This document shows, one piece after another, positions 9,565 through 31,830 of a stretch of 64,000 nt of DNA. Source of the stretch: Octopus sinensis (lineage: Eukaryota); contig NC_042997.1 in assembly GCF_006345805.1 (NCBI RefSeq), positions 191,456,001 to 191,520,000 on the forward strand, given 5' to 3'. The position numbers and the translations under genes are program-made. Position 1 is the first letter of the stretch. Each line of letters opens with the position of its first letter. The notes beneath the pieces were generated by a model. It saw only the letters and a list, made by a program, of their open reading frames with translations. It was not told the DNA's origin and made no database searches.

Positions 9565-10939
9565 TTATGTGTCTGTGTTTGTTCCCTCCAACATTGCTTG
9601 ACAACCGATGGTGGTGTGTTTGCGTCCCCGTCACTTAGCAGTTTGGCAAAAGAGACCGATAGAATAAGTAACAGGCTTACAAAGAATAACTCCTGGGGTC
9701 GATTTGCTCAACTAAAGGCTGAAACAAGTAAAAAGAAAACAGTATAGAAGGGTCAGTTGGGCACTGTCTGTCAGAAAAACAGTACTTTGGCACAATTCAT
9801 TGTGCCAGAAATTTGGAAACGACATACTGTACTGCTTGGCATTTGCACAAGAAGCTCCAATACGAACACTTCAGAGTATTTGGGTTTCAATCTGAGGACA
9901 GTGCAGAGCATTCGGAAAGAGTTGGATGAGTCTAAAGGTGATTATAAATGTATGACAGCTTAGAAAACTCTGATTGTTCTGATGAGAAAAGAACTCCAGA
10001 ATTTGTTAGTGAGATCCAGGCCATGATTGACAACAATCCCTTTAAGTCAATCAGGTTTATTGTCAGGGACATGGGAGTGCCTGAATTTCTTATCAGGCAG
10101 GTAGTACATGAAGACATTTGGTATTCCTCATACAAGATGAGAAAGGGCCAATTTTTATCCCAAGCCATCAAGGACAAGAGGGAAGACCGTGATACGAAGC
10201 TTTTGAACAAACCCAAGCAGCCCCTCCAATCAAACATGCTTTGGTTTTCTCAGAGGAGAAAAATTTCTGCCAGGATCAAACCAGGTGAACACGCAGAACA
10301 ACTGCTGGCTTGCCATATCCCCAAAACATATATTGAGAGTGATAAAAATCAAACCTACAGTCAACATCATGGTATTTGGAGTGTTACTAGTGATGGCGAC
10401 ATTATGCCTCCATTCATCTTCCCAAACGACCTCAGATTCAACACAGAGGCCTATATCAAGTACCTGGAGGAGGTAGTACTGCCCTGGGTCAAGAGGGTGG
10501 CTGCTAGAAGACCCTATGTCTGGCAACAGGACTCTGCACCATGTCACACAAGCAGCAGAGCCCAGTCATGGCTATCAGACAATTTCTGTGACCATACCAC
10601 CCCTAACAACTGGCCACCTAACTCCCCAGACTGCTACCCCCTTGATTATTGTGTGGGTTGCAGTTGAGCGAGAGACCAGCAAAACTCCTTGTAACACCAA
10701 AGATGAACTGAAGGCAAGGATTATGGCAGCATTCACCAACTTAAACAAGGAGACCATCAAGAAGTGTTGCAGGAGATTCTGAAGAGCATGGTTGAAGCCA
10801 ATGGCAATTTTTATTGAATAAATTTACTCTTTAATATTTCAAGATATTTTTACGTAATTTTGGTAAATATATCTGTTAAAATGAGACGTCAGTGTTTTTT
10901 TTTTTTGTAATTTAGATGACAATTATTCATCGCACCCTG
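9276..10939 (+). mobile_element. Tc1/mariner transposon, DD37D (maT-type), frameshifted, with SINE insertion
   Basis: TA|CAGGGTGCAATG ... CATCGCACCCTG|TA ends; WQQDSAPCH...WPPNSPDCYPLDY with 37 residues between 2nd and 3rd catalytic D. Confidence 0.9.
9361..9738 (+). mobile_element. SINE family B inserted in the maT transposon
   Basis: TSD ACAGTA at 9355-9360 and 9739-9744. Confidence 0.9.
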
Positions 10940-17459: not shown

Positions 17460-17771
17460 AACTGAGAGGAAGTATAACAAACACAAAATTGTTGTTGAGA
17501 TGTTACTTCCTGTGAAGTAAGACGTCCAGATATCTGTGAAGCACTTAGTATAGTGTGATACATACGAAGAATAAAACAGGAAATTGATGTACAGTAATAA
17601 TAGTGTGAAGTGTGTACACACCTATTAATATAAACAATACTTGTCGATAGATGAGAAATATTCTGTCAGTAAATGTTAAGATATAGTGTGACTAGTCTTC
17701 TTTAAGACAAAGGCAAAACAAGACCACAGAAAGATAGCCATCCCTCAAAGAATGAATTAATTACGGTAAGC
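17460..17771 (+). promoter_or_regulatory. Possible promoter / non-coding first exon of the adaptor-like gene
   Basis: Unique sequence with GAGGAAGT (17466), ACTTCCTGT (17505), ACAGGAAAT (17576), GACCACA (17722), AGATAG (17732) and donor-like ACG|GTAAGC at 17766. Confidence 0.3.
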
Positions 17772-19763: not shown

Positions 19764-20492
19764 CATACACACATATTCATCATATATATTAATCCAAACA
19801 AGTGGAGGAATAGAAGAAATGAAGTTGCAAAACCAGAGAGACTATATCAGAATTATTTCAAAATTCATTATATCTTAAAATATAGGAATGCACTTGGCTG
19901 GTTCCACACAAGATTTTTCGAAAGTGTATAGTGTATGGACTTGTGTTGTAAATTATTTCTATTCTGATCATTATTATAAAAATAGTTTGTTTTTAAAATA
20001 GGAATCCGGCGATATATATAAACATCCTCTAAATCTATACATACCATTAAAAGGCATGATGTTATGGAATTGTCTGAGATAAAATATCTTTATTGATCTG
20101 TGTTAAAAACACAATGTATATCAGAGCGAGATAAATGTCACTGTAGTGACTCGTGAGAATGACTTTCTTGAGACTCATCAATGGCAAGCATTTGTCACCT
20201 GCTTCAACAAAATTTGTACCTTGATATATAGGAAACAGTGAATAAAACATTTACTAGCACTGCTGATGTTTGCCACGCTGTGGAAAAATTTGGTAAACAC
20301 AATGGAAACAGCATTAAATTAAAATAGCCATCTGTGTATCATACTAAATGTATATTTACTGTTAGAAGGCATAATACTGTGTTTGTTTCATATATTTAGC
20401 TTTCTCACAAGCCACTACAGGGTTGTTATTTCATCTCCCTCTGATATCTATCTATCTATCTCTATCTCTCTATCTCTCTATCTATATATATA

Positions 20493-21403: not shown

Positions 21404-22499
21404 TATATATATATTGTGTTTTCAAATGCAGTACATCCATAAGAGATGTTGTCTTGGATGAATATTCTTCCTAGCTTCTTCAAATGATTAATTAATGATC
21501 GTAATGCTAACATTAACTTCAGTGGAAAGCTCTCTCACTGTCACAGCTGGATTGCTCATTATGTTGACTCCAGTATTTCATTATTGAATTCAAGTTCATC
21601 AGGCTACCTGAAATTGCCAAGTTTGAATTTTTCAAACCTTTTTTTGTTATGTTGTGTCTGGGGAAGAGTCATTTTCTTTTTTGCCTTATTATGTAACACA
21701 CTCACCGGTAAAATTTCCACTTATTTCTTATTTTTATTTTCCTAAAATTATCGTGTCTAGCTTGAAAGTCATAAACACACCGAAGGGAAATAACAATTCG
21801 GTGAGACAAGCTGACTGACAGGTGACGGTCGTTTAGAAAAAGTACGGGCTAAAACTACGTGCCTTCACTAGTCAGTTAAGGTGAGACAGTGTCATGTGAC
21901 AACTTGCTGGGGCTGCATGCTGGAGCCTATGCGGCAGATATTTAAAGGGAAAAATTTGACAAGACAGTCAGTCACCGGCTGACACTCACTGACGATACAT
22001 CGAAGAGGCCAGGGAACAGAAGAAAGAAGACATGCACCCAACACCAGAGCTGAAGACACCTCCGAAAGTAAGGGCCCCGCCACGTCAAAATGGTAGAGGA
22101 GTAGGGGCCAAAACCGAACGTGGTTCCTCCCGATGATGTCTTGAGCTAACTGGATCCTATAAAGGAGCTGTTGTGGTAGCAGACGACGAAACACAGTTGT
22201 AATTCCTCCTTCAATAGTCCTGACTCTGTCTGTTATTTACACTTTTTTTGTTATTTCTTACGTATATACATACATGAATTGCCATCGTTGTCTAATGCCC
22301 ATGTTTTATGCTGGCATGGGTTGGAAGGTTTGACAGGATCTGATGGGATCAAGGACTGCATCACACATCAGTGTCTACTTGGGGGCATGAGGATAGCCTC
22401 TTAAGTCATATTTATTGTAATTATTCATTAATGCTTTGTCTGTTAATTTGCAGAGATTACAAACCATCAATAAAAAAGAAAGAAAACTTGTATTAAATA

Positions 22500-22584
22500 A
22501 TGAAGAACTTCCAAACAACACCAATTCTTGAAAGGAATAATTCAACAGATTCAGACCAATCACATATACTACATTTCCATGCAA
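22500..22584 (+). CDS. Coding exon 1 of putative transmembrane adaptor-like protein (MKNFQTTPILERNNSTDSDQSHILHFHA)
   Basis: Acceptor ttaatttgcAG at 22452-22453; in-frame upstream TAA at 22494; ATG 22500; donor A|GTAAGT at 22585; phase 1 matches next exon; NNS/NST glycosylation sequons. Confidence 0.6.
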
Positions 22585-23644
22585 GTAAGTTCTTAATTAT
22601 TTTAATACATTTCATATATTAGTGTATGTCATCTGGGAGTGTTACCATACTTGCCACGCTTGGCACAGTGGGTTTGTAAGCCCCTTTAGAGAGCTTTTAC
22701 CTCATTGCAGGAATATGTTAGGGCTTGTTCTTTACTGTTGAAACTCACATGACACATGGACACACACACACACACACACACATGAAAATCATCATCAACA
22801 TCATTATCATCATCGTTTAACGTCCGTTTTCCATGCTAGCATGGGTTGGACGGTTCAACTGGGGTCTGGGAAGCCAGAAGTCTGCGCCAGGCCCAGTCTG
22901 ATTTGGCAGTGTTTCTACAGCTGGATGCCCTTCCTAACATGAAAATAAATAAGTAAAAAAGTTGAAAGGTTAAAAATTATATACATACATGCTCACAGTC
23001 CCTCCACCACCACCACCACCACCACCACCACTGGATGGCCACTGACTTTCCTGAATTCCTCTGCTCTTTTGGATGGGTTTTGTTTTCTGTCCTGCAGGGT
23101 GTCTAATAACCACCCTCCTCACCCAACTCATTTGGTGGGGTCACCAGTTTAGTTACCAATGACCCAACCAAGACAAAATACAATATGACAAGATGATCTC
23201 AGCTGCTATCTGGGCCTGCATGATTGTGACTGATCAGAAATAGGCAGTAGTGGAAGGAATCCAGAAAGGGATCCCGCTTTTAGGAGCAACAAAGCCCAGG
23301 TTGAGGTTTAATGCAATGGTTGGAAATTTCTATAGAAAAACAACTAGTAGGGACCTACAAATCTTCTGGTGTGACTTAGTAGTTCGGCAAAACGGCCCAG
23401 TCGAATAAGTACTAGGCTTACAAAGAATTAGTCCTGGGGTCCATTTCATACACTAAAACTCTTTAACTGAAACAAGTAGAATGCTATATTTGTGTAGCCA
23501 ACTTTCCTTTTGTCAATGTTAAGTTTAATTAATAAAGGGAGATAACTCCTTCTGAACCTGAATTATTTCCCTCTTCTCATCTATCGTGTACTCTTTCGCT
23601 TTATAGTCATAATTTCCACCTTCTTATACACATATATATATGAT

Positions 23645-23823
23645 AGATCGGTAGCCACTACACACATTATTTTTCTCTCCTTGTTTTTTTCTGTGTCCCT
23701 TTCTGTAGAAGAGCGTAGGCTCGAAACGTAAAAGACTTTTTCTATTCCTGAGCATTATACTAATACATCTGTTTGTTTTGTACACCACCTGTCTTCGTCT
23801 TTTGTTTTCTTTCGTGAACTCCC
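23645..23823 (+). mobile_element. Solo PLE terminal-repeat-like element with hammerhead-like motif (23699-23734)
   Basis: CTTT-CTGTAGA-A-GAGC-gtag-GCTC-GAAA-CG-TA-AAAG; flanked by (TA)n. Confidence 0.5.
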
Positions 23824-24459
23824 TATATATATATATATATATATATATGTGTATGTATCAGCAATAATAAAATAATTATAATAATAAGGATTATTAATAA
23901 TTTTTTTTTTGCCAAATAAATTATTACTGCTCTTATTCTAACTGAGCCCTGGCCAACTCGAATTACATGGTGGGTCACCTTAATCATAGAAAGTTTTTGG
24001 AGGGCTGCTTGTATGCTGACAGAATTGAAAGCATTTTGCTTTCTCATGCTAGTATTACAATAATGAATGAATGATCATTGATTCAACATGAAATATTATC
24101 GTTGCAAAAACAGTAGCATCTTTCTTTTTAGCTTTCCATTACAATCTTTAATTTTTGATAAAAATTTTTTAATGTTTGTTTAAAGAAACCCATTTCAAGA
24201 AAGTATCAAGCAGGCCGCAAGATAAAAGTCTGCGGGTCACATGCAGCCCACGGGTCTTAGGTTGGCCAGCCGTGTTCTAACACATGTCCATTGTCTGGGA
24301 ATCTTTCGTCACACATCTGTGACCTCTTCAGTGACACTTTTCGTCTTTGTGTGTGCTCTTGCTCCACTTATTTAATTCTGCCCTTCTATGATGCGTATCC
24401 TTATGTGCGCGTGCATTTGCATCCGCGTTTATGTATGTTTGCATGTATGTGTGTGTCAT

Positions 24460-24690
24460 TGAGCTGGCAGAAACGTTAGCACGCCAGGCGAAATTCTTAG
24501 CGGTATTTTGTCTGCCGCCATGTTCTGAGTTCAAATTCCGCCGAGGTCGACCTTGCTTTTCATCCTTCCGGTGTCGATTAAATAAGTACCAGTTATGCAT
24601 TTGGGTTGATATAATCGACTTAATCAGTTTGTCTGTCCTTGTTTGCACCCTCTGTGTGTAGCCCCTTGTAGGCACTAAAGAAATAAGAGT
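24460..24690 (+). mobile_element. SINE family A
   Basis: Full-length match. Confidence 0.85.
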
Positions 24691-25140
24691 ATAACCTTTC
24701 CCTCAGTCCCATCCTCTTCCCCTGTTGTCGCTGCAGATCTCCTAGGACCCCAAAATTTGGTATAGTTTCTGTATCTCTCTGTGTTTGTGTGTTCGCCTAT
24801 GATGCTGCCATCGTGGTAGTTGTTGTTGTTATTATTGCCATCGTTATCACTGCCACTGTCATTGTTAGTACTGTTGCAGCTGTCTGTGAAGTTATTGTGT
24901 GTGTGTGTGTGTGTGTGTGTGGGTTTGCTTATTATATTGTTTGTATCCATGCCCCTTATTTTCATCTACTTCTATTTCTTATATTTATCACAGGTATGTG
25001 ACAAATATATTAATTTATTTATCTATATTTCTTATATGTATCACAGGTATGTGCATATATGTCTACTGTGTGTGTATTACCCTGTTTGTGTCTGCGTTTT
25101 ATTTAGATTATTATTTTTTCCTTCTCTCTTCTGTCTTTAG

Positions 25141-25612
25141 TCATGTGGTGTGGCGGTGGGTGTTACTGTTCCATTTGTGTTTTCTATTGAGGCTCAGCCT
25201 GTCTACTGTTATGTGTGTAGCCTTTGTGATCTGTCTAAGTGTTATATCAGTTCTATATGTCGATAATACTTTAACCTCTATGCTGTTAATCAAGCCTCCA
25301 AGTTCTGCTTGAGTATGTTAGTAGAGGACTGACGAGCCTTTCTCTTCTTTGAGCTCCTGCCAGTGCTCATCTATACGCTCCCCTATGCTGCATGCAGTCT
25401 ATCCAATGTAAGTAGTTGTCATGTTTCCACACTGTTCCTCAGTACATCATCAGCTATACACTATATTCCTAACCTTACAGTTAATCCGTAGGTTCATCCT
25501 ACATACAACACAATTGTTCTCTGTAGATAGGAACTTATCAAAGGGATAGGTTCTACAGATCAAGGATTTTATAGGGGCATCAGGCCTTTCTTCTACCTTA
25601 ATCCGTAGAGTA
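25141..25612 (-). mobile_element. Degenerate PLE GIY-YIG endonuclease fragment, Naiad-like
   Basis: Minus strand CVVCRMNLRINCKVRNIVYS**CTEEQC..TYIG*TACSIGERIDEH...LRQITKA.HI....LNRKHKW. Confidence 0.7.
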
Positions 25613-26757
25613 AACTTACTGGCACTTGTGCTGGTAGCACGTGAAAAAACATTCATGTGAGGTCGTTGCCAGTGCTGCTGGACTGGCTCCTGTGCAGTTG
25701 GCATGTAAAAAACACTATCTGAGCATGGCCGTTGCCAGTACCTCTTGACTGGCCCTTGTACCGGTGGCACGTAAAAGCACCCACTACACTCACAGAGTGG
25801 TTAGCATTAGGAAGGGCATCCAGCTGTAGAAACACTGCCAGATCAGATTGGAGCCTGGTGCAGCCATCTGGTTCGCCACTCCTCAGTCAAATCGTCCAAC
25901 CTATGCTAGCATGGAAAGCGGACATTAAACGATGATGATGATGATGATAGCCTTATATATATATATATATATATATATATCTCAATCACAAGATTTGGAC
26001 TCAGAATGCAAAGAACTGAGACAGATCTCATCTGGCACTCCAGTGATTTTGCTAGTCCCCCGCCCTAGATTGCTACTTCATTCTATTGACCCCAAACAGG
26101 TTGAAATACAAAGGTGACCTCAGCATACACAGGTTTTAGTTGGTTATTTTGAATATCTAATATTTACCTGTGAAATATCTAATCCAGCCATAAATTATTT
26201 CCTAATGAACGTGGGAATTATTTATCCATACACGAGATGATTAACCTCTATCTGCCAATGAATTATCTACTAAATACTTATCCACTAACGATATAAATTA
26301 TTCATGAGATATCAGCTATAAAATATTTTAATATTCATCCAACCATGAAATAATTGACATTTATTCAGCTATGAAATATCTAACACATATTTATCTCCAT
26401 TCAGAGCTCATTGCTCATCATCCTCATGGGTCGGGCATAATTTGCTGAGGCAGAGTTTCTTATGGCTGGACGCCCTTCCTGTCACCAAACCTCACCTGTT
26501 TCCAAGAAACATAATATATCTAGGAAGAACAGAAACAAGGGACACCACTTGTATGATGGTGACACTTATTTACACCTACTGCATGATATCAAGGCAAGGG
26601 GACAGTAACACACACACACAACAGGCTTCCACACAAGTTTCCATCTACCAGATTCATTCACAAGGCTTTGGTCGGCCAGAAGCTGTAGCAGAAGAGACTT
26701 GCCCAAGGTACAATGCAGTAGTACTGAATCTAAAACCATCTGGTTAGGAGGTAAACT

Positions 26758-27200
26758 TCTTATTTCTTTATTGCCCACAGGAGGCTAAACACAGAGGGGA
26801 CAAACAAGGTCAGATAACAGGATTAAGTTGATTACATCGACTCCAGTACATAACTGGTACTTAATTTATCGACCCCGAAAGGATGAAAGGCAAAGTCGAC
26901 CTCAGTGGAATTTGAACTCAGAATGTAGCGGCAGACGAAATACCGCTAAGCATTTCACCTGGCGTGCCAACTCTTCTGCTAGCTCGCCGCCTTACTTCTT
27001 AACTTCTTCTTTCTTTATTGCCCACAAGGGGCTAAACAGAGAGGACAAACAAGGACAGACAAAGGGATTAAGTCGATGATATCGAGCCCAGTGCGTAACT
27101 AGTAAAATTCATCGACCCTGAAAGGATGAAAGGCAAAGCCAACCTCAGCAGAATTTGAACTCGGAACGTAGTGGCAGACGAAATACCGCTAAGCATTTTG
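26758..27200 (-). mobile_element. Two tandem SINE family A copies nested in a family B SINE
   Basis: 26758-26995 and 27005-27200; B-SINE halves at ~26600-26757 and ~27210-27240. Confidence 0.8.
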
Positions 27201-27315
27201 CCTTACTTCTTAACTTCTTAACTACACAGCCATGCCTGCCCCTATCTGACAAAAAAATCTCATGCTTATGTCTTTTCATGTTTATATTTTTATCCTTTTC
27301 CTAATTTTCTTTTAG

Positions 27316-27400
27316 GATTAATTACTTATATTGGCGCTACCATATCTATTGGATTATGCATCATCACTCTTTGTGTCTTGATTTGGTACATCAGGAAACA
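27316..27400 (+). CDS. Transmembrane exon (RLITYIGATISIGLCIITLCVLIWYIRKQ)
   Basis: Pyrimidine-rich acceptor ttttcttttAG, donor CA|GTGAGT; 85 nt, phase 1 to 2; hydrophobic stretch followed by RK stop-transfer. Confidence 0.75.
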
Positions 27401-27544
27401 GTGAGTATCCATTTTTCATTCTTTATTAGGAAGTTATTCCTCAGAGAATAAAGAATTTGATAAACCTAGCATTCCAATCAAACCAAATTCCCAGATAAAT
27501 TCTACAGAATATGTTTGCATTGTTTTCATCATTATCATCATCAT

Positions 27545-28495
27545 TATTATCAGCATGTAAAAAGCACCATCCAAACGTGATAGATGCCAGTGTTCCCCCA
27601 CTGGCTCCCGTGCTGGTGGCATCATCCAAATATGGTCGCTGCCGGTGGCACGTAAAAAGCACCATCCAAACATGGTCGATGCCAGTGCCCCCTGACTGGT
27701 AGCACGTGAAAAGCACCATCCGCACATAGTCGATGCCATGCCCCCTGACTGGTTCCTGTGCTGGTAGCACGTAAAAAGCACCATCCAAACATGGTCGATG
27801 CCAGTGCCCCCTGACTGATTCCTGTGCTGGTAGCACGTGAAAAGCACCATCTGAACATAGTCGATGCCATGCCCCCTGACTGGTTCCTGTGCTGGTAGCA
27901 CGTAAAAAGCACCATCCAAACATGGTCGATGCCAGTGCCCCCTGACTGGTTCCTGTGCTGGTAGCACGTGAAAAGCACCATCCGAACATAGTCGATGCCA
28001 GTGCCCCCTGACTGGTTCCTGTGCTGGTAGCACGTGAAAAGCACCATCCGAACATAGTCGATGCCAGTGCCCCCTGACTGATTCCTGTGCTGGTAGCACG
28101 TGAAAAGCACCATCCGAACATGGTCGATGCCAGTGCCCCCTGACTGATTCCTGTGCTGGTAGCACGTGAAAAGCACCATCCGAACATGGTCGATGCCAGT
28201 GCCCCCTGACTGATTCCTGTGCTGGTAGCACGTGAAAAGCACCATCCGAACATGGTCGATGCCATGCCACCTGACTGGTTCCTGTGCCAGTGGCATGTAA
28301 AAAGCACCATCCGAACATGGTCGATGCCAGTGCCATGTAAAATGCACCCACTACATCTCGGAGTGGTTGGCATTAGGAAGGGCATCCGTGCCAGGTCAGA
28401 TAGGAGCTTGGTGCAGCCTGCTGGCTTGCCAGTCCTCAGTCAAACCATCCAACCTTTACCAGCATGGAAAACGGACGTTGAAATAATGATGAATA
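27545..28495 (+). repeat. Family D copy with expanded ~66-bp tandem array (~11 units)
   Basis: Period 66 (27964 vs 28030); standard family D 3' end. Confidence 0.9.
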
Positions 28496-28584
28496 AGTGA
28501 GAGACATAGCAATTATTAACTGAACACAGCTAACACAAACACTTTCTCCTCATTACAAAAATTTTTTTTTCGCCCTTTTCAAAC

Positions 28585-28845
28585 TCATGGGCCCAGTTTC
28601 TTGGTTTCTGTGACGTATGTGTTCCCCCCAGCTGGACGGGACACCAGTCCATCGCAGCATTACTCAAGAAACAGGAAGAGAGAATGAGAGCAAGTTGTGG
28701 CAAAAGAGTACAACAGGGATCACCACCCCCTGCCGGAGCCTCGTGGAGCTTTTAGGTGTTTTCGCTCAATAAACACACACAACGCCTGGTCTGGGAATCG
28801 AAACCGCAAGTCCGCTGCCCTAACCACTGGGCCATTGCACCTCCA
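28585..28845 (-). mobile_element. SINE family C
   Basis: Same head, different 3' part. Confidence 0.8.
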
Positions 28846-28990
28846 CTAAGAAAAATATGCTCGCATACATAAGCTGAGAGAAAGAGACAGATGGAAAGTG
28901 AAGGAACTCACTGCATTGCACAGACCACAGCTTGCTCATCTCTAAAGGTCCAAGCAATCCTTTTGCTTTCTTGATAAAAGGACTGCTATC

Positions 28991-29180
28991 AAGGTGGCAA
29001 GTTGGCAGAAACGTCAGCATGCCAGGCGAAATGCTTAGCAGTATTTCATGTCTTTATGTTCTGAGTTCAAATTCCGCCGAGGTCAACTTTGCCTTTCATC
29101 CTTTTGGGGTGGATAAATTAAGTACTAGTTGCGTACTGGGATCAATCTAATTGACTGCCCCATCCCACCAAAATTTTAGG
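28991..29180 (+). mobile_element. SINE family A
   Basis: Head and body match. Confidence 0.8.
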
Positions 29181-29537
29181 TCAACGGTTTATACTTTTAA
29201 CTTGTATTTCAAGGTTAGCATTAGGAAGGGCATCCGTTCTTCAGAAAATCTTCTGAGAAATGGTCTTGTAAAAAAATACAAACCATCAATCTGTATTATT
29301 TCTAAACACACACATATATATACATACATACACACACACACACATATATATATATATACACACACGTTATATTTGGTGTTAGGAAGGGCATCCAGCTGTA
29401 GAAACATTGCCAGATAAGACTGGAGCCTGGTGCAGCCTTCTGGCTTCCCAGATCCCCGGTCAAACCGTCCAACCCATGCTAGCATGGAGAACGGATGTTA
29501 AACGATGATGATGACACACAAGGTTTAAAAAAAAGAC

Positions 29538-30300
29538 CTGGCTGTGTGATAAGAAGATAACTTCCTAATCACATGGTTCTGGGTTCAGTCCCACTATGTT
29601 GCATCTTGGGCAATTGTCATCTACAAAAATCCTCAGGTTCACCAAAACCTTGTGAATGGATTTGATAGATGGAAACTGAAAGAAGCCTATCATATATATA
29701 TGTGTGTGTGTGTGTGTGTCTGAGTTTGTCCCCCACCACCATTTCACAACTGGGCTTGGTGTTTACATGACCATAACTTAGCAGTTCAGTAGAAGGCAGC
29801 AATAAAATAAGTACCAGGTTTTGTACAAAAGATAAATACTGGGGTTGATTTGTTGGACTGGAAAAAATAAAAATTCAAATAGGTGCAGGAGTGGCTGTGT
29901 GGTAAGTAGCTTGTTTACGAACCACATGGTTCCGAGTTCAGTCCCACTGCGTGGCATCTTGGGCAAGTGTCTTCTGCTATAGCCCCGGGCCGACCAATGC
30001 CTTGTGAGTGGATTTGGTAGACGGAAACTGAAAAAAGCCTGTCGTATATATGTGTGTTTGTGTTTGTACCCCTAGCATGACTTGACAACCGATGCTGGTG
30101 TGTTTACGTCCCTGTCACTTAGCGGTTCGGCAAAAGAGACCGATAGAATAAGTACTGGGCTTACAAAGAATAAGTCCCGGGGTCGATTTGCATGACTAAA
30201 AGCGGTGCTCCAGCATGGCCGCAGTCAAATGACTGAAACAAGTAAAAGAGTAGTGCCCTAATATGGCTACAGTTTAATGACTGAAGCAAGTAAAAGATAG
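29538..30300 (+). mobile_element. Nested SINE family B copies (young 29881-30252 inside older)
   Basis: Two heads; older tail resumes after 30253. Confidence 0.8.
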
Positions 30301-30377
30301 ATAACATGCATCTTCATTCATCATCTGTTCATCAAATTTCCTTAATTAAGAAATAATTATTTTATTTTCTCTCACAG

Positions 30378-30693
30378 AAAAACTTTAACTTTTGAGCAAG
30401 TTCCAGTAGAAGATGGCAATACAAACGATGCTAAAAGTAACACGAAAAACGTATACGATGACTTCCAATATCTCCGATGTAAAATCACTGAGAACAACAC
30501 GCAACAGAGTGACAACAGAATGCAACAGACCAGTGTTGTCTATGAAACACCGACAATACAAAGGGAACACGTGACACCAAGAGGAAACATTGCAGATGAA
30601 GATGCAAATATTTATGGCAATACTCTGCAACACCAGAGGCTTGAAAGGCAGCCCACAAATGAAATATATATGAACATGGATACCAATAGATAG
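30378..30693 (+). CDS. Terminal coding exon: cytoplasmic tail with tyrosine motifs NVYDDF, VVYETP, NIYGNT, EIYMNM
   Basis: Acceptor ttttctctcacAG; phase 2 joins previous exon (CA+A=Gln); 104 open codons to TAG 30691-30693 in unique sequence. Confidence 0.75.
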
Positions 30694-30909
30694 AAGAGGT
30701 AGAGTAATTAGAAGAGGACTTGTACATATCTTAATCAAAAATGTCTACTGAATTTTCCCCTTGTCTGTATTCCATTTGTTTTAGCTAATACAGCTAAGGC
30801 CTACCAGGACATGTCAGGTCAGAGCAGCAATGTTATATATATTTATTCAAACTGAGATTTTTAGCCTACATTTCAGTAATGGCCTAAAATATCAATTTTA
30901 AAATATATG

Positions 30910-31434
30910 CAGGATGGGCCAAAAGTCACGCACCAAAACATTTGACATTTTATTTATAACATGTTGTTTTATGCTTTTATTTGTTTGTCATTTGACTGCG
31001 ACCATGCTGGAGCACCGCTTTTAGTCAAACAAATCGACCCCAGGACTTATTCTTTGTAAGCTTAGTACTTTTTCTATTGGTCACTTCTGCTGAACTGCTA
31101 AGTTACGGGGACGTAAACACATCAGCATCGGTTGTCAAGCGATGGTGGGGGACAAACATATACACACACACATACACATATATATATATATATACATGAG
31201 CTTCTTTCGGTTTCCATCTACCAAATCCACTCACAAGGCTTTGGTTGGCCCACGGCTATAGTAGAAGACACCTGCCCAAGGTACCACACAGTGGGACTGA
31301 ACCTGGAACCATGTGGTTGGGAAGCAAGCTACCTAGCACACAGCCACTCCTGTGCCTACTAAAAATTGAAGCTACCCCTTAACAATTCCATAGCGTAAGT
31401 TTTAATCTTGGTGCCTGAATTTTGGTCCACCCTG
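30910..31434. mobile_element. Tc1/mariner-type MITE containing a SINE
   Basis: CAGGATGGGCCAAAAGTCACGCACCAA / TTGGTGCCTGAATTTTGGTCCACCCTG|TA. Confidence 0.7.
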
Positions 31435-31830
31435 TATATTTACAATAAATGTATTTATAAACTGTTACATGTGAGTGTGCATGCATGTGTGTGGTTAAGG
31501 TCATGTTGCAACCACTTGATTTTGAGTTCAATCCCACTGCATGGCAGCTTAATCAAGTGTCTTTTACTTACAACCCTGGGCTGACCAATGCCTTGTTAAT
31601 GAATTTAGCAAATGGAAACAGTGTGGTAGCCTGATATTGTGTGTGTGTGAATGCATGTACATGTTTATCTTATTACTTGACGGTGTTAGTTTGTTTATGT
31701 CCCTGTAACTTGGCAGTTTGGTAAAAAAAAAAAAATCAATGCAAAAACAAAAATGCTGGACCACTTTGATAGACCGAAATCTTTGAGACAATGCTCCAGC
31801 ATGGCCACAATCCAATGACTGAAACAAGTA
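30975..31830. mobile_element. SINE family B copies (30975-31358 -, 31485-31830 +)
   Basis: Family B motifs. Confidence 0.8.

What the first reader, a model, noticed from the sequence alone, without database searches (positions are those of the whole stretch)
22500..30693. Hidden LAT/TRIM/SIT-like transmembrane adaptor gene with a CD28-type YMNM motif
Seen: three exons with canonical splice sites and matching phases give 161 aa. The protein has no signal peptide, a ~29-aa ectodomain with N-glycosylation sequons, one TM helix with two Cys, an RKQK stop-transfer, and a low-hydrophobicity tail with YDDF, YETP, YGNT and YMNM. Known: YxN binds Grb2 SH2, YxxM binds PI3K p85, YxxP binds Crk/Nck-type SH2, and this architecture defines vertebrate leukocyte transmembrane adaptors. 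Inference: a lineage-specific, possibly haemocyte, signalling scaffold in a cephalopod, invisible to the ORF track.
Basis: partly seen in the sequence, partly recalled or inferred. Interest (0 to 1): 0.8.

Follow-up and report, generated by a model that had tools for sequence, protein, structure and literature searches.

The report
Octopod membrane adaptor with tyrosine docks
This octopus gene, already catalogued without a function, makes a spliced message for a small single-pass membrane protein whose tail tyrosines are kept in a distant octopod relative and likely serve as docking sites for signalling proteins, much as membrane adaptor proteins do in vertebrate immune cells.

Summary
The gene is real but not hidden. 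The three exons give a 161-aa protein identical to records for Octopus sinensis (LOC115214262) and O. vulgaris, all unnamed. Contigs splice 22584 to exon 2 in 3 of 4 runs; junction 27400/30378 is supported only indirectly. Exon 1 actually starts at acceptor 22454, fed by at least two upstream exons, and an in-frame TAA (22494-6) before the ATG blocks a larger ectodomain by that route. Orthologues: O. bimaculoides (86%) and Argonauta (42-46%); none found outside octopods. All five tail tyrosines are kept, including YDDF, YExP, YxN and YxNM; conservation is higher around them than elsewhere in the tail. Grb2, p85 and Nck SH2 exons exist in this genome. Best reading: a non-palmitoylated, LAX/GAPT-like transmembrane adaptor of independent origin (0.6). 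It has no detectable homology to LAT, TRIM or SIT, lacks CxxC, and loses the ectodomain sequons in O. bimaculoides. Phosphorylation, binding, topology and haemocyte expression are untested.

The parts
17589..17765 (+). Proximal upstream (5' untranslated) exon; donor G|GTAAGC after 17765. The start is inferred from the 177 upstream letters of one contig.
   Evidence: The loose end of run X2 at 22454 maps to 17736-17764. The ATGs in it open only 2-11 codon frames.
22454..22499 (+). Untranslated start of the first coding exon (acceptor TTTGCAG), with an in-frame TAA at 22494-22496 two codons before the ATG
   Evidence: Contigs of X18, X2 and X8 begin at 22454 and X17 at 22453. All three frames of 22454-22584 hold a stop.
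22500..22584 (+). First coding part: ATG and 28-residue N-terminal segment with overlapping sequons N13/N14; phase-1 donor
   Evidence: covered with 0 differences in X18, X1, X17 and X8
27316..27400 (+). Transmembrane exon: helix L30-Y53 (about 27318-27389, with GxxxS, C43 and C48) and the start of the basic RKQK stop-transfer
   Evidence: Loose ends behind 22585 read this exon's first 30 bases in 3 of 4 runs; AlphaFold2 helix with pLDDT 75-90 at residues 31-50
30378..30693 (+). Last coding exon: 104-residue predicted disordered tail and stop codon
   Evidence: single match in the genome; held by 20 of 24 listed runs
30454..30471 (+). Y83-D-D-F and Y88, a tyrosine pair kept in all three orthologues (YDDFxYL)
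30541..30552 (+). Y112-E-T-P (YExP in all three; candidate Nck/Crk/Abl-type SH2 site, specificity recalled)
30613..30624 (+). Y136-G-N-T (I-Y-x-N in all three; candidate Grb2 site)
   Evidence: motif rule from PMC3342071 passages
30667..30678 (+). Y154-M-N-M (E-I-Y-x-N-M in all three; candidate shared Grb2 and PI3K p85 site)
   Evidence: CD28 YMNM rule from the PMC2193818 abstract
30694..31039 (+). 3' untranslated region, at least this far if the contigs splice at 27400/30378
   Evidence: Contig lengths imply ends at 30829-31039; first AATAAA/ATTAAA after the stop is at 31444

Best explanation
The gene encodes a small single-pass membrane protein with a short N-terminal segment and a predicted disordered tail whose five tyrosines are conserved across octopods, and it likely works as a transmembrane adaptor: a tyrosine kinase, probably of the Src type, would phosphorylate the tail, which would then dock SH2 proteins at the membrane. 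Shown: the gene, the first junction, the stand-alone start, one helix, no catalytic domain, and conserved YDDFxYL, YExP, IYxN and EIYxNM. Inferred: N-out/C-in topology without a cleaved signal peptide; phosphorylation, since I or V precedes 4 of 5 tail tyrosines, as in the recalled Src-family substrate preference; Grb2 at the two YxN sites (towards Ras/MAPK); PI3K p85 at YxNM; an Nck/Crk-type SH2 at YExP (towards actin). Lacking CxxC, it would belong with the non-raft adaptors (LAX, SIT, TRIM). With no detectable homology to them, it would be an independent invention. The upstream receptor and the cell type are unknown.
For: Spliced contigs and an in-frame stop before the ATG. Annotations in four octopod species all give 159-175 aa with the same layout. 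5 of 5 tail tyrosines are kept in Argonauta at 44 of 107 tail identity. Positions -1..+3 around them are identical at 25 of 25 versus 62 of 78 elsewhere (O. bimaculoides, Fisher P=0.008) and 15 of 25 versus 28 of 78 (Argonauta, P=0.03). I/V at -1 occurs in 4 of 5 tyrosines (4 of 7 in Argonauta), shuffle P 0.0002-0.0008, a post hoc pattern. The model is one helix plus a low-confidence tail. Genome exons match Grb2 (E 6e-19, with the YFLW loop), p85 (E 4e-17) and Nck (E 1e-17) SH2 domains. The layout fits the published definition of these adaptors. The nearest language-model clusters include SCIMP, GAPT, vaccinia-type A36 and LIME1 at 0.83-0.88, a lead only.
Against: No phosphorylation, binding, localisation or tissue data. 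Single motifs are near chance in an Asn-rich tail. Conservation rests on three distinct sequences, two of them 86% identical; no dN/dS. The atlas top hit is opalin (0.89), not an adaptor, and all scores are under the 0.9 bar. Flanking charge favours N-out in both Octopus proteins (N/C -1/+1 and 0/+1) but not in Argonauta (+3/+1). YDDF and YMNM also fit the recalled YxxPhi sorting signal. Grb2, p85 and Nck are general animal proteins, so their presence only permits the model.
Confidence: 0.6

Rival explanations
1. A small structural or trafficking membrane glycoprotein, laid out like vertebrate opalin, whose tyrosines act mainly as YxxPhi sorting or endocytosis signals (YDDF, YMNM) rather than as SH2 docks.
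For: Top atlas neighbour is opalin, 0.89 (lead only). YDDF is invariant in all three orthologues, and YDDF/YxNM fit YxxPhi (rule recalled). N-terminal sequons occur in O. sinensis/vulgaris and Argonauta.
Against: Sorting signals do not explain the kept Asn at +2 in two sites (three in Argonauta), Pro at +3 in YExP, or I/V at -1. The sequons are missing in O. bimaculoides.
Confidence: 0.15
2. A dedicated signalling subunit that pairs in the membrane with one particular receptor, as DAP10 (YxNM; recalled) or TRIM do, rather than a free scaffold.
For: Terminal YxNM is kept in all three. The helix is the best-kept region (24 of 25 and 14 of 25 identical) with conserved GxxxS and C43, which suggests a helix-helix contact.
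Against: The helix has no charged residue, which DAP10-type pairing needs (recalled). There is no ectodomain cysteine for a TRIM/SIT-type disulfide dimer. Four to five motifs fit a multi-site scaffold better.
Confidence: 0.12
3. The 3' end of an ordinary receptor: a larger ectodomain is spliced onto the phase-1 acceptor at 27316 in some isoform, or was in an ancestor.
For: A phase-1 intron before the helix is typical of type I receptors (recalled). One contig carries 2,608 further upstream bases. Contigs drop rare isoforms. Exon-2 bin depth in X18 and X1 exceeded that of the single contig (33.5 versus 11.2 and 3.5 versus 1.7); repeats at the bin's end may explain this, but it was not resolved.
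Against: 3 of 3 contigs that cross the donor join 22584 to exon 2, and acceptor 22454 leads to stops in all frames. The upstream exons found have no long open frame, and the next coding gene upstream is a DUF5745 (CEP95-like) gene with its own stop. No longer protein with this tail was found among 29 candidates of 183-2000 aa (weak) or among 1.84 billion representatives. Argonauta has the same short start.
Confidence: 0.07
4. Inverted (type II) topology: the helix is a signal anchor, the acidic tyrosine-bearing tail lies outside the cell, and the tyrosines are sulfation or ligand sites.
For: Argonauta's flanking charge is more positive on the N side (+3 versus +1). The tyrosines have acidic neighbours. 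The tails carry 1-3 sequons.
Against: WY followed by a basic cluster (RKQK or SRKK) is kept on the C side. The helix is long (24 residues). Tail sequons are not kept in position. There are no repeated dibasic or amidation sites. The conserved +2 Asn and +3 Met/Pro match SH2 rules.
Confidence: 0.06

Closest known systems
Vertebrate non-raft transmembrane adaptors LAX, SIT, TRIM, and the similarly built GAPT
   Same: Short ectodomain, one helix, non-catalytic tail with tyrosine motifs. LAX has YxN sites plus a p85 YxxM and lacks CxxC; GAPT has four Grb2 motifs (PMC3342071 passages; PMC2803307 part 1 of 3). GAPT cluster scores 0.87 by features (lead only).
   Different: No sequence homology. Five tail tyrosines against 7-10. 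No ectodomain cysteine for the TRIM/SIT dimer (dimer recalled). A mollusc without lymphocytes; the SIT family is described as a vertebrate novelty (PMC5620054 passage).
Palmitoylated adaptors LAT, NTAL/LAT2, LIME, PAG/Cbp, SCIMP
   Same: Same overall layout and YxN sites; SCIMP and LIME1 clusters at 0.88 and 0.83 (lead only).
   Different: No juxtamembrane CxxC. C43 and C48 lie inside the helix and C48 is Ala in Argonauta. The ectodomain is longer (about 29 aa; PAG has 16).
CD28 YMNM motif and DAP10 YxNM motif
   Same: One tyrosine carrying both the Grb2 (+2 Asn) and the PI3K (+3 Met) code (PMC2193818 abstract; DAP10 recalled).
   Different: No Ig domain, no signal peptide, no acidic residue in the helix. 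The motif is at the far C terminus, not next to the membrane, and reads YYNM in Argonauta. A four-residue match does not show common descent.
Opalin (TMEM10) and poxvirus A36
   Same: Small single-pass proteins with a short N-terminal segment; atlas neighbours at 0.89 and 0.85. A36 recruits Nck and Grb2 through tail phosphotyrosines (recalled).
   Different: No alignment-level similarity; scores are under the tool's 0.9 bar.

Membership tests
Transmembrane adaptor proteins (TRAPs, an architectural class) | Short extracellular segment with no ligand-binding domain | tested here: met
   27-29 residues before the helix in 3 of 3 orthologues; in-frame stop upstream of the ATG in spliced contigs
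Transmembrane adaptor proteins (TRAPs, an architectural class) | Single transmembrane helix | tested here: met
   One hydrophobic peak; one helix in the model
Transmembrane adaptor proteins (TRAPs, an architectural class) | Tail without an enzymatic domain, carrying several tyrosine-based motifs | tested here: met
   No Pfam family over cut-off and no solved relative; five conserved tyrosines
Transmembrane adaptor proteins (TRAPs, an architectural class) | Tail faces the cytosol | tested here: inconclusive
   Flanking charge favours it in 2 of 3 sequences, not in Argonauta; no dedicated topology or signal-peptide predictor was run
Transmembrane adaptor proteins (TRAPs, an architectural class) | Tyrosines phosphorylated by Src/Syk-family kinases and bound by SH2 proteins | not testable with these tools
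   Only the presence of Grb2-, p85- and Nck-like SH2 exons was shown
Transmembrane adaptor proteins (TRAPs, an architectural class) | Expression in immune cells, downstream of an immunoreceptor | tested here: inconclusive
   Run libraries and tissues are not on record; identifier not found in the readable supplements of two papers, and the large files could not be read
LAT, TRIM, SIT, LAX, GAPT, SCIMP, PAG, LIME as sequence families | Detectable homology | tested here: not met
   Pfam returned only sub-threshold DUF6821, Col_cuticle_N and PFF1_TM hits; no such protein in phmmer or profile searches
Palmitoylated TRAPs (LAT, NTAL, LIME, PAG) | Juxtamembrane CxxC palmitoylation motif | tested here: not met
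   Cysteines at 43, 48 and 91; only C43 (mid-helix) is conserved; feature
TRIM/SIT-type disulfide-linked dimers | Ectodomain cysteine forming a homodimer (recalled) | tested here: not met
   No cysteine before the helix in 3 of 3 sequences; a non-covalent dimer was not modelled
DAP10-type receptor signalling subunits | Acidic residue in the helix (recalled) together with YxNM | tested here: not met
   YxNM present, helix uncharged in 3 of 3

The most novel reading that the evidence does not exclude
Octopods independently invented a LAT/LAX-style transmembrane adaptor: an orphan gene that couples a haemocyte (or neural) receptor to Grb2, PI3K and Nck through a CD28-type YxNM site and two or three further docks, showing that a signalling design thought typical of vertebrate leukocytes arose twice. 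Part of its expression may come by read-through from the neighbouring CEP95-like gene.
Probability: 0.25. Interest if true: 0.75.

Novelty: new member of a known kind. Interest (0 to 1): 0.45.

Why it matters
Transmembrane adaptors are described from vertebrate leukocytes, and the four literature searches run here (listings only) showed no invertebrate example. A verified octopod one would show convergent origin of the design and would give a handle on tyrosine-kinase signalling in cephalopod cells: phosphopeptide pull-downs and existing single-cell atlases can test it at once. The weight is limited, because the gene model is already public, the function is inferred from short motifs, and small tyrosine-tailed membrane proteins may be common and simply unstudied in invertebrates.

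Tried and rejected
(1) Larger ectodomain upstream: ab initio exon scans of 100 kb upstream plus the window found only a CEP95-like gene that ends at its own stop about 43 kb before exon 22454. (2) Longer homologues: none among 29 candidates (weak by the tool's own note). (3) Paralogues: one match with the tail; with the Argonauta protein, 2 of 4 matches are this gene and 2 are stop-ridden at E 0.57-0.79; two weak hits to a helix-plus-intron query at E 2-4 showed nothing like the helix. (4) P0004, a shark protein at E 3.8e-4, is a repeat of tyrosine-bearing low-complexity units with no helix in the aligned part, and was dropped as a relative. (5) A look-alike of exon 2's end at about 20200-20245 scored no better than the best of 297 random windows. 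(6) A recalled likeness of the helix to the first helix of adhesion GPCRs found no Pfam support. (7) PDB profile search: 3 hits at E 0.4-5, none meaningful; no fold search was run on the low-confidence model (mean pLDDT 52). (8) Atlas structure rows all had TM under 0.5; the second atlas search, with the Argonauta protein, gave unnamed clusters at 0.85-0.87 only. (9) No listed run is on record as RNA: no RNA holder listed. (10) Literature: 0 papers hold LOC115214262 or LOC106873026. (11) Orthologue DNA was not obtained, so dN/dS is open; a homodimer was not modelled.
Full report
Observation. They give 161 aa with one hydrophobic stretch (L30-Y53), sequons at N13/N14, C43 and C48, RKQK, and five tail tyrosines: Y83 DDF, Y88 LRC, Y112 ETP, Y136 GNT, Y154 MNM. 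The tail exon has one match in the genome.

The gene is transcribed and spliced. Twenty of 24 listed runs hold the last exon; none is on record as RNA and tissues are not given. Laid on 22400-22740, each of 4 runs gave one contig. All stay within 22453-22585 with no differences, and the intron bases on both sides have zero depth. In 3 of 4 (X18, X1, X17; three studies) the letters after 22585 are the start of exon 2; X2's contig stops at 22509. A fifth run, X8, also covers 22454-22584. The second junction (27400/30378) was not inside a laid stretch. It is supported indirectly: X8's depth in bin 27365-27560 (1.2) equals that of a contig leaving at 27400; contig lengths put the 3' ends at 30829-31039; and the annotated orthologues keep the frame. 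X18 and X1 had more depth in that bin than their single contig explains (33.5 versus 11.2; 3.5 versus 1.7). Repeats at the bin's end are the likely cause, but I did not resolve it.

The first coding exon opens at acceptor 22454, 46 bases before the ATG. X2 joins it to an exon ending at 17765. X18 joins it to an exon ending at G000:C1:191451503, about 4.5 kb before the window, with a canonical donor. X1's 25 extra letters look like a sequencing adaptor (recalled). All three frames of 22454-22584 contain a stop, including a TAA two codons before the ATG, so nothing upstream can extend the protein through this acceptor. The ATGs in the 177 and 203 upstream bases checked open frames of at most 11 codons. 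X18's contig has 2,608 bases upstream of 22454, and I saw only 30 of them. The nearest coding gene upstream on the same strand carries DUF5745 (E 2e-25; its link to CEP95 is recalled) and stops about 16 kb before the distal exon. Eleven of its exons sum to 1,582 bases, and more were seen, so read-through from it could account for the length. That is inference only.

It is already catalogued. The protein is identical to P0001: O. sinensis LOC115214262 (three RefSeq accessions for one protein, in line with alternative 5' ends) and O. vulgaris CAI9716530, both unnamed. Orthologues are O. bimaculoides LOC106873026 (159 aa, 86%) and Argonauta hians GAB1597841 (175 aa, 42-46%). A phmmer search of the tail over 1.84 billion representatives gave 3 hits: these two and a repetitive shark protein that I dropped. 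A profile search gave only the 3 inputs among 1,564 candidates of 87-307 aa, and a search among longer proteins gave 0 of 29. So it is octopod-restricted as far as these searches see; fast divergence in squid cannot be excluded.

What is conserved. Identity to O. bimaculoides and Argonauta is 21 and 8 of 29 in the N-terminal segment, 24 and 14 of 25 in the helix, and 91 and 44 of 107 in the tail. All five tail tyrosines have counterparts: YDDFxYL, VYExP, IYxN, and EIYMNM against EIYYNM (Argonauta has an extra VYAN, to which MAFFT aligned Y154). Positions -1 to +3 around the tyrosines are more conserved than the rest of the tail: 25 of 25 against 62 of 78 (P=0.008) and 15 of 25 against 28 of 78 (P=0.03). 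In tail shuffles the single motifs are weak (two YxN 0.11, YxxM 0.13, YxxP 0.17, YxNM 0.018); the joint set is about 0.001, and I/V before 4 of 5 tyrosines is 0.0002, both chosen after seeing the sequence. Not conserved: the N-terminal sequons (absent in O. bimaculoides, three in Argonauta) and C48. There is no CxxC and no ectodomain cysteine. Flanking charge favours N-out in Octopus but not in Argonauta. AlphaFold2 on three sequences gives one helix and a low-confidence tail (mean pLDDT 52). No Pfam family passes its cut-off and no solved relative was found.

Mechanism. Reviews define transmembrane adaptors by a short ectodomain, one helix and a non-enzymatic tail whose tyrosines are phosphorylated by Src/Syk kinases and dock SH2 proteins. 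They list YxN for Grb2 and YxxM for p85, and separate CxxC-bearing raft adaptors from LAX, SIT and TRIM (PMC3342071, passages; PMC2803307, part 1 of 3). They also note that NTAL and LAT share no major homology, so the class is architectural. YMNM in CD28 binds both PI3K and Grb2 (PMC2193818, abstract). The likely readers exist here: among 51 SH2 matches in the genome (I translated 50 and identified three by search), exons match Grb2 (E 6e-19, including the YFLW loop, with an SH3 exon downstream), p85 (E 4e-17) and Nck (E 1e-17). The first half of the Grb2-like domain alone scored equally with SHP2. I therefore favour a non-raft adaptor: inserted N-out, phosphorylated by a Src-type kinase when some receptor fires, then recruiting Grb2 at Y136 and Y154, p85 at Y154, and an Nck/Crk-type SH2 at Y112 (the last rule recalled). 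Every step after the anatomy is inferred. Language-model neighbours are opalin, SCIMP, GAPT, A36-type, C1orf162, TMEM154 and LIME1 at 0.83-0.89, all under the tool's bar and so only a lead.

Rivals. A sorting or structural glycoprotein (0.15), a dedicated receptor subunit (0.12), a receptor with an unseen long isoform (0.07) and inverted topology (0.06) remain open; evidence is in the rival entries.

Membership and novelty. It meets the three architectural features that could be tested, fails homology to any named vertebrate adaptor, fails CxxC, and cannot be tested for phosphorylation or SH2 binding. It works like LAX or GAPT on paper and is not a LAT, TRIM or SIT. The SIT family is described as a vertebrate novelty (PMC5620054, passage). 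Four searches showed no invertebrate adaptor of this kind in their listings: 20 of 37, 3 of 3, 25 of 13,095 and 15 of 35 papers seen as titles and abstract starts. Two passages of PMC10199209 added nothing. This is a thin basis for absence. Haemocyte expression is untested: the identifiers were not in the 2 searchable supplementary files of PMC9712504 (one further file was unreadable and two were too large) or in the 1 short file of PMC13230822.

Verdict. Observation confirmed; interpretation partly supported. A real, conserved, octopod-restricted, unnamed gene with a credible adaptor mechanism (0.6). New member of a known kind; interest 0.45.

Noticed in passing
L011:6664 to L008:9585 (G000:C1, about 191.403-191.436 Mb, + strand; upstream of the window): A multi-exon DUF5745 (CEP95-like) gene ends 16 kb before the adaptor's distal 5' exon. 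One contig with 2,608 upstream bases may be a read-through message carrying two reading frames; not shown.
   Followed up: partly
L008:3686-4492: An AT-AC minor-spliceosome-type intron in the CEP95-like gene: ATATCCTT donor, TTCTTAACC branch-like site, AC acceptor; one frame stays open across it.
   Followed up: partly
window:39434-41361: Three neighbouring + strand open frames (77, 261 and 248 aa) that look like a degraded Penelope-type retroelement (reverse transcriptase plus GIY-YIG-like end; recalled). The two longer frames were scanned and had no Pfam hit.
   Followed up: partly
window:3076-3474 and 9948-10667: A reverse transcriptase fragment (RVT_1, E 2e-10) and a 239-aa frame that resembles a mariner-type transposase (recalled; no Pfam hit).
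   Followed up: partly
window:20829-21415 and 27696-28334: A near-perfect 286-bp tandem duplication (99%) upstream of the first coding exon, and a 66-bp array of about 10 copies in the last intron.
   Followed up: no
G000:C3:148461865-148540134 (L020-L022): Three full-length SH2 exons within 80 kb, resembling Csk (recalled); possibly a local expansion.
   Followed up: no
window:17765: Run X2 reads A where the genome has G at the last base of the proximal 5' exon, probably an allele at the donor's -1 position.
   Followed up: no
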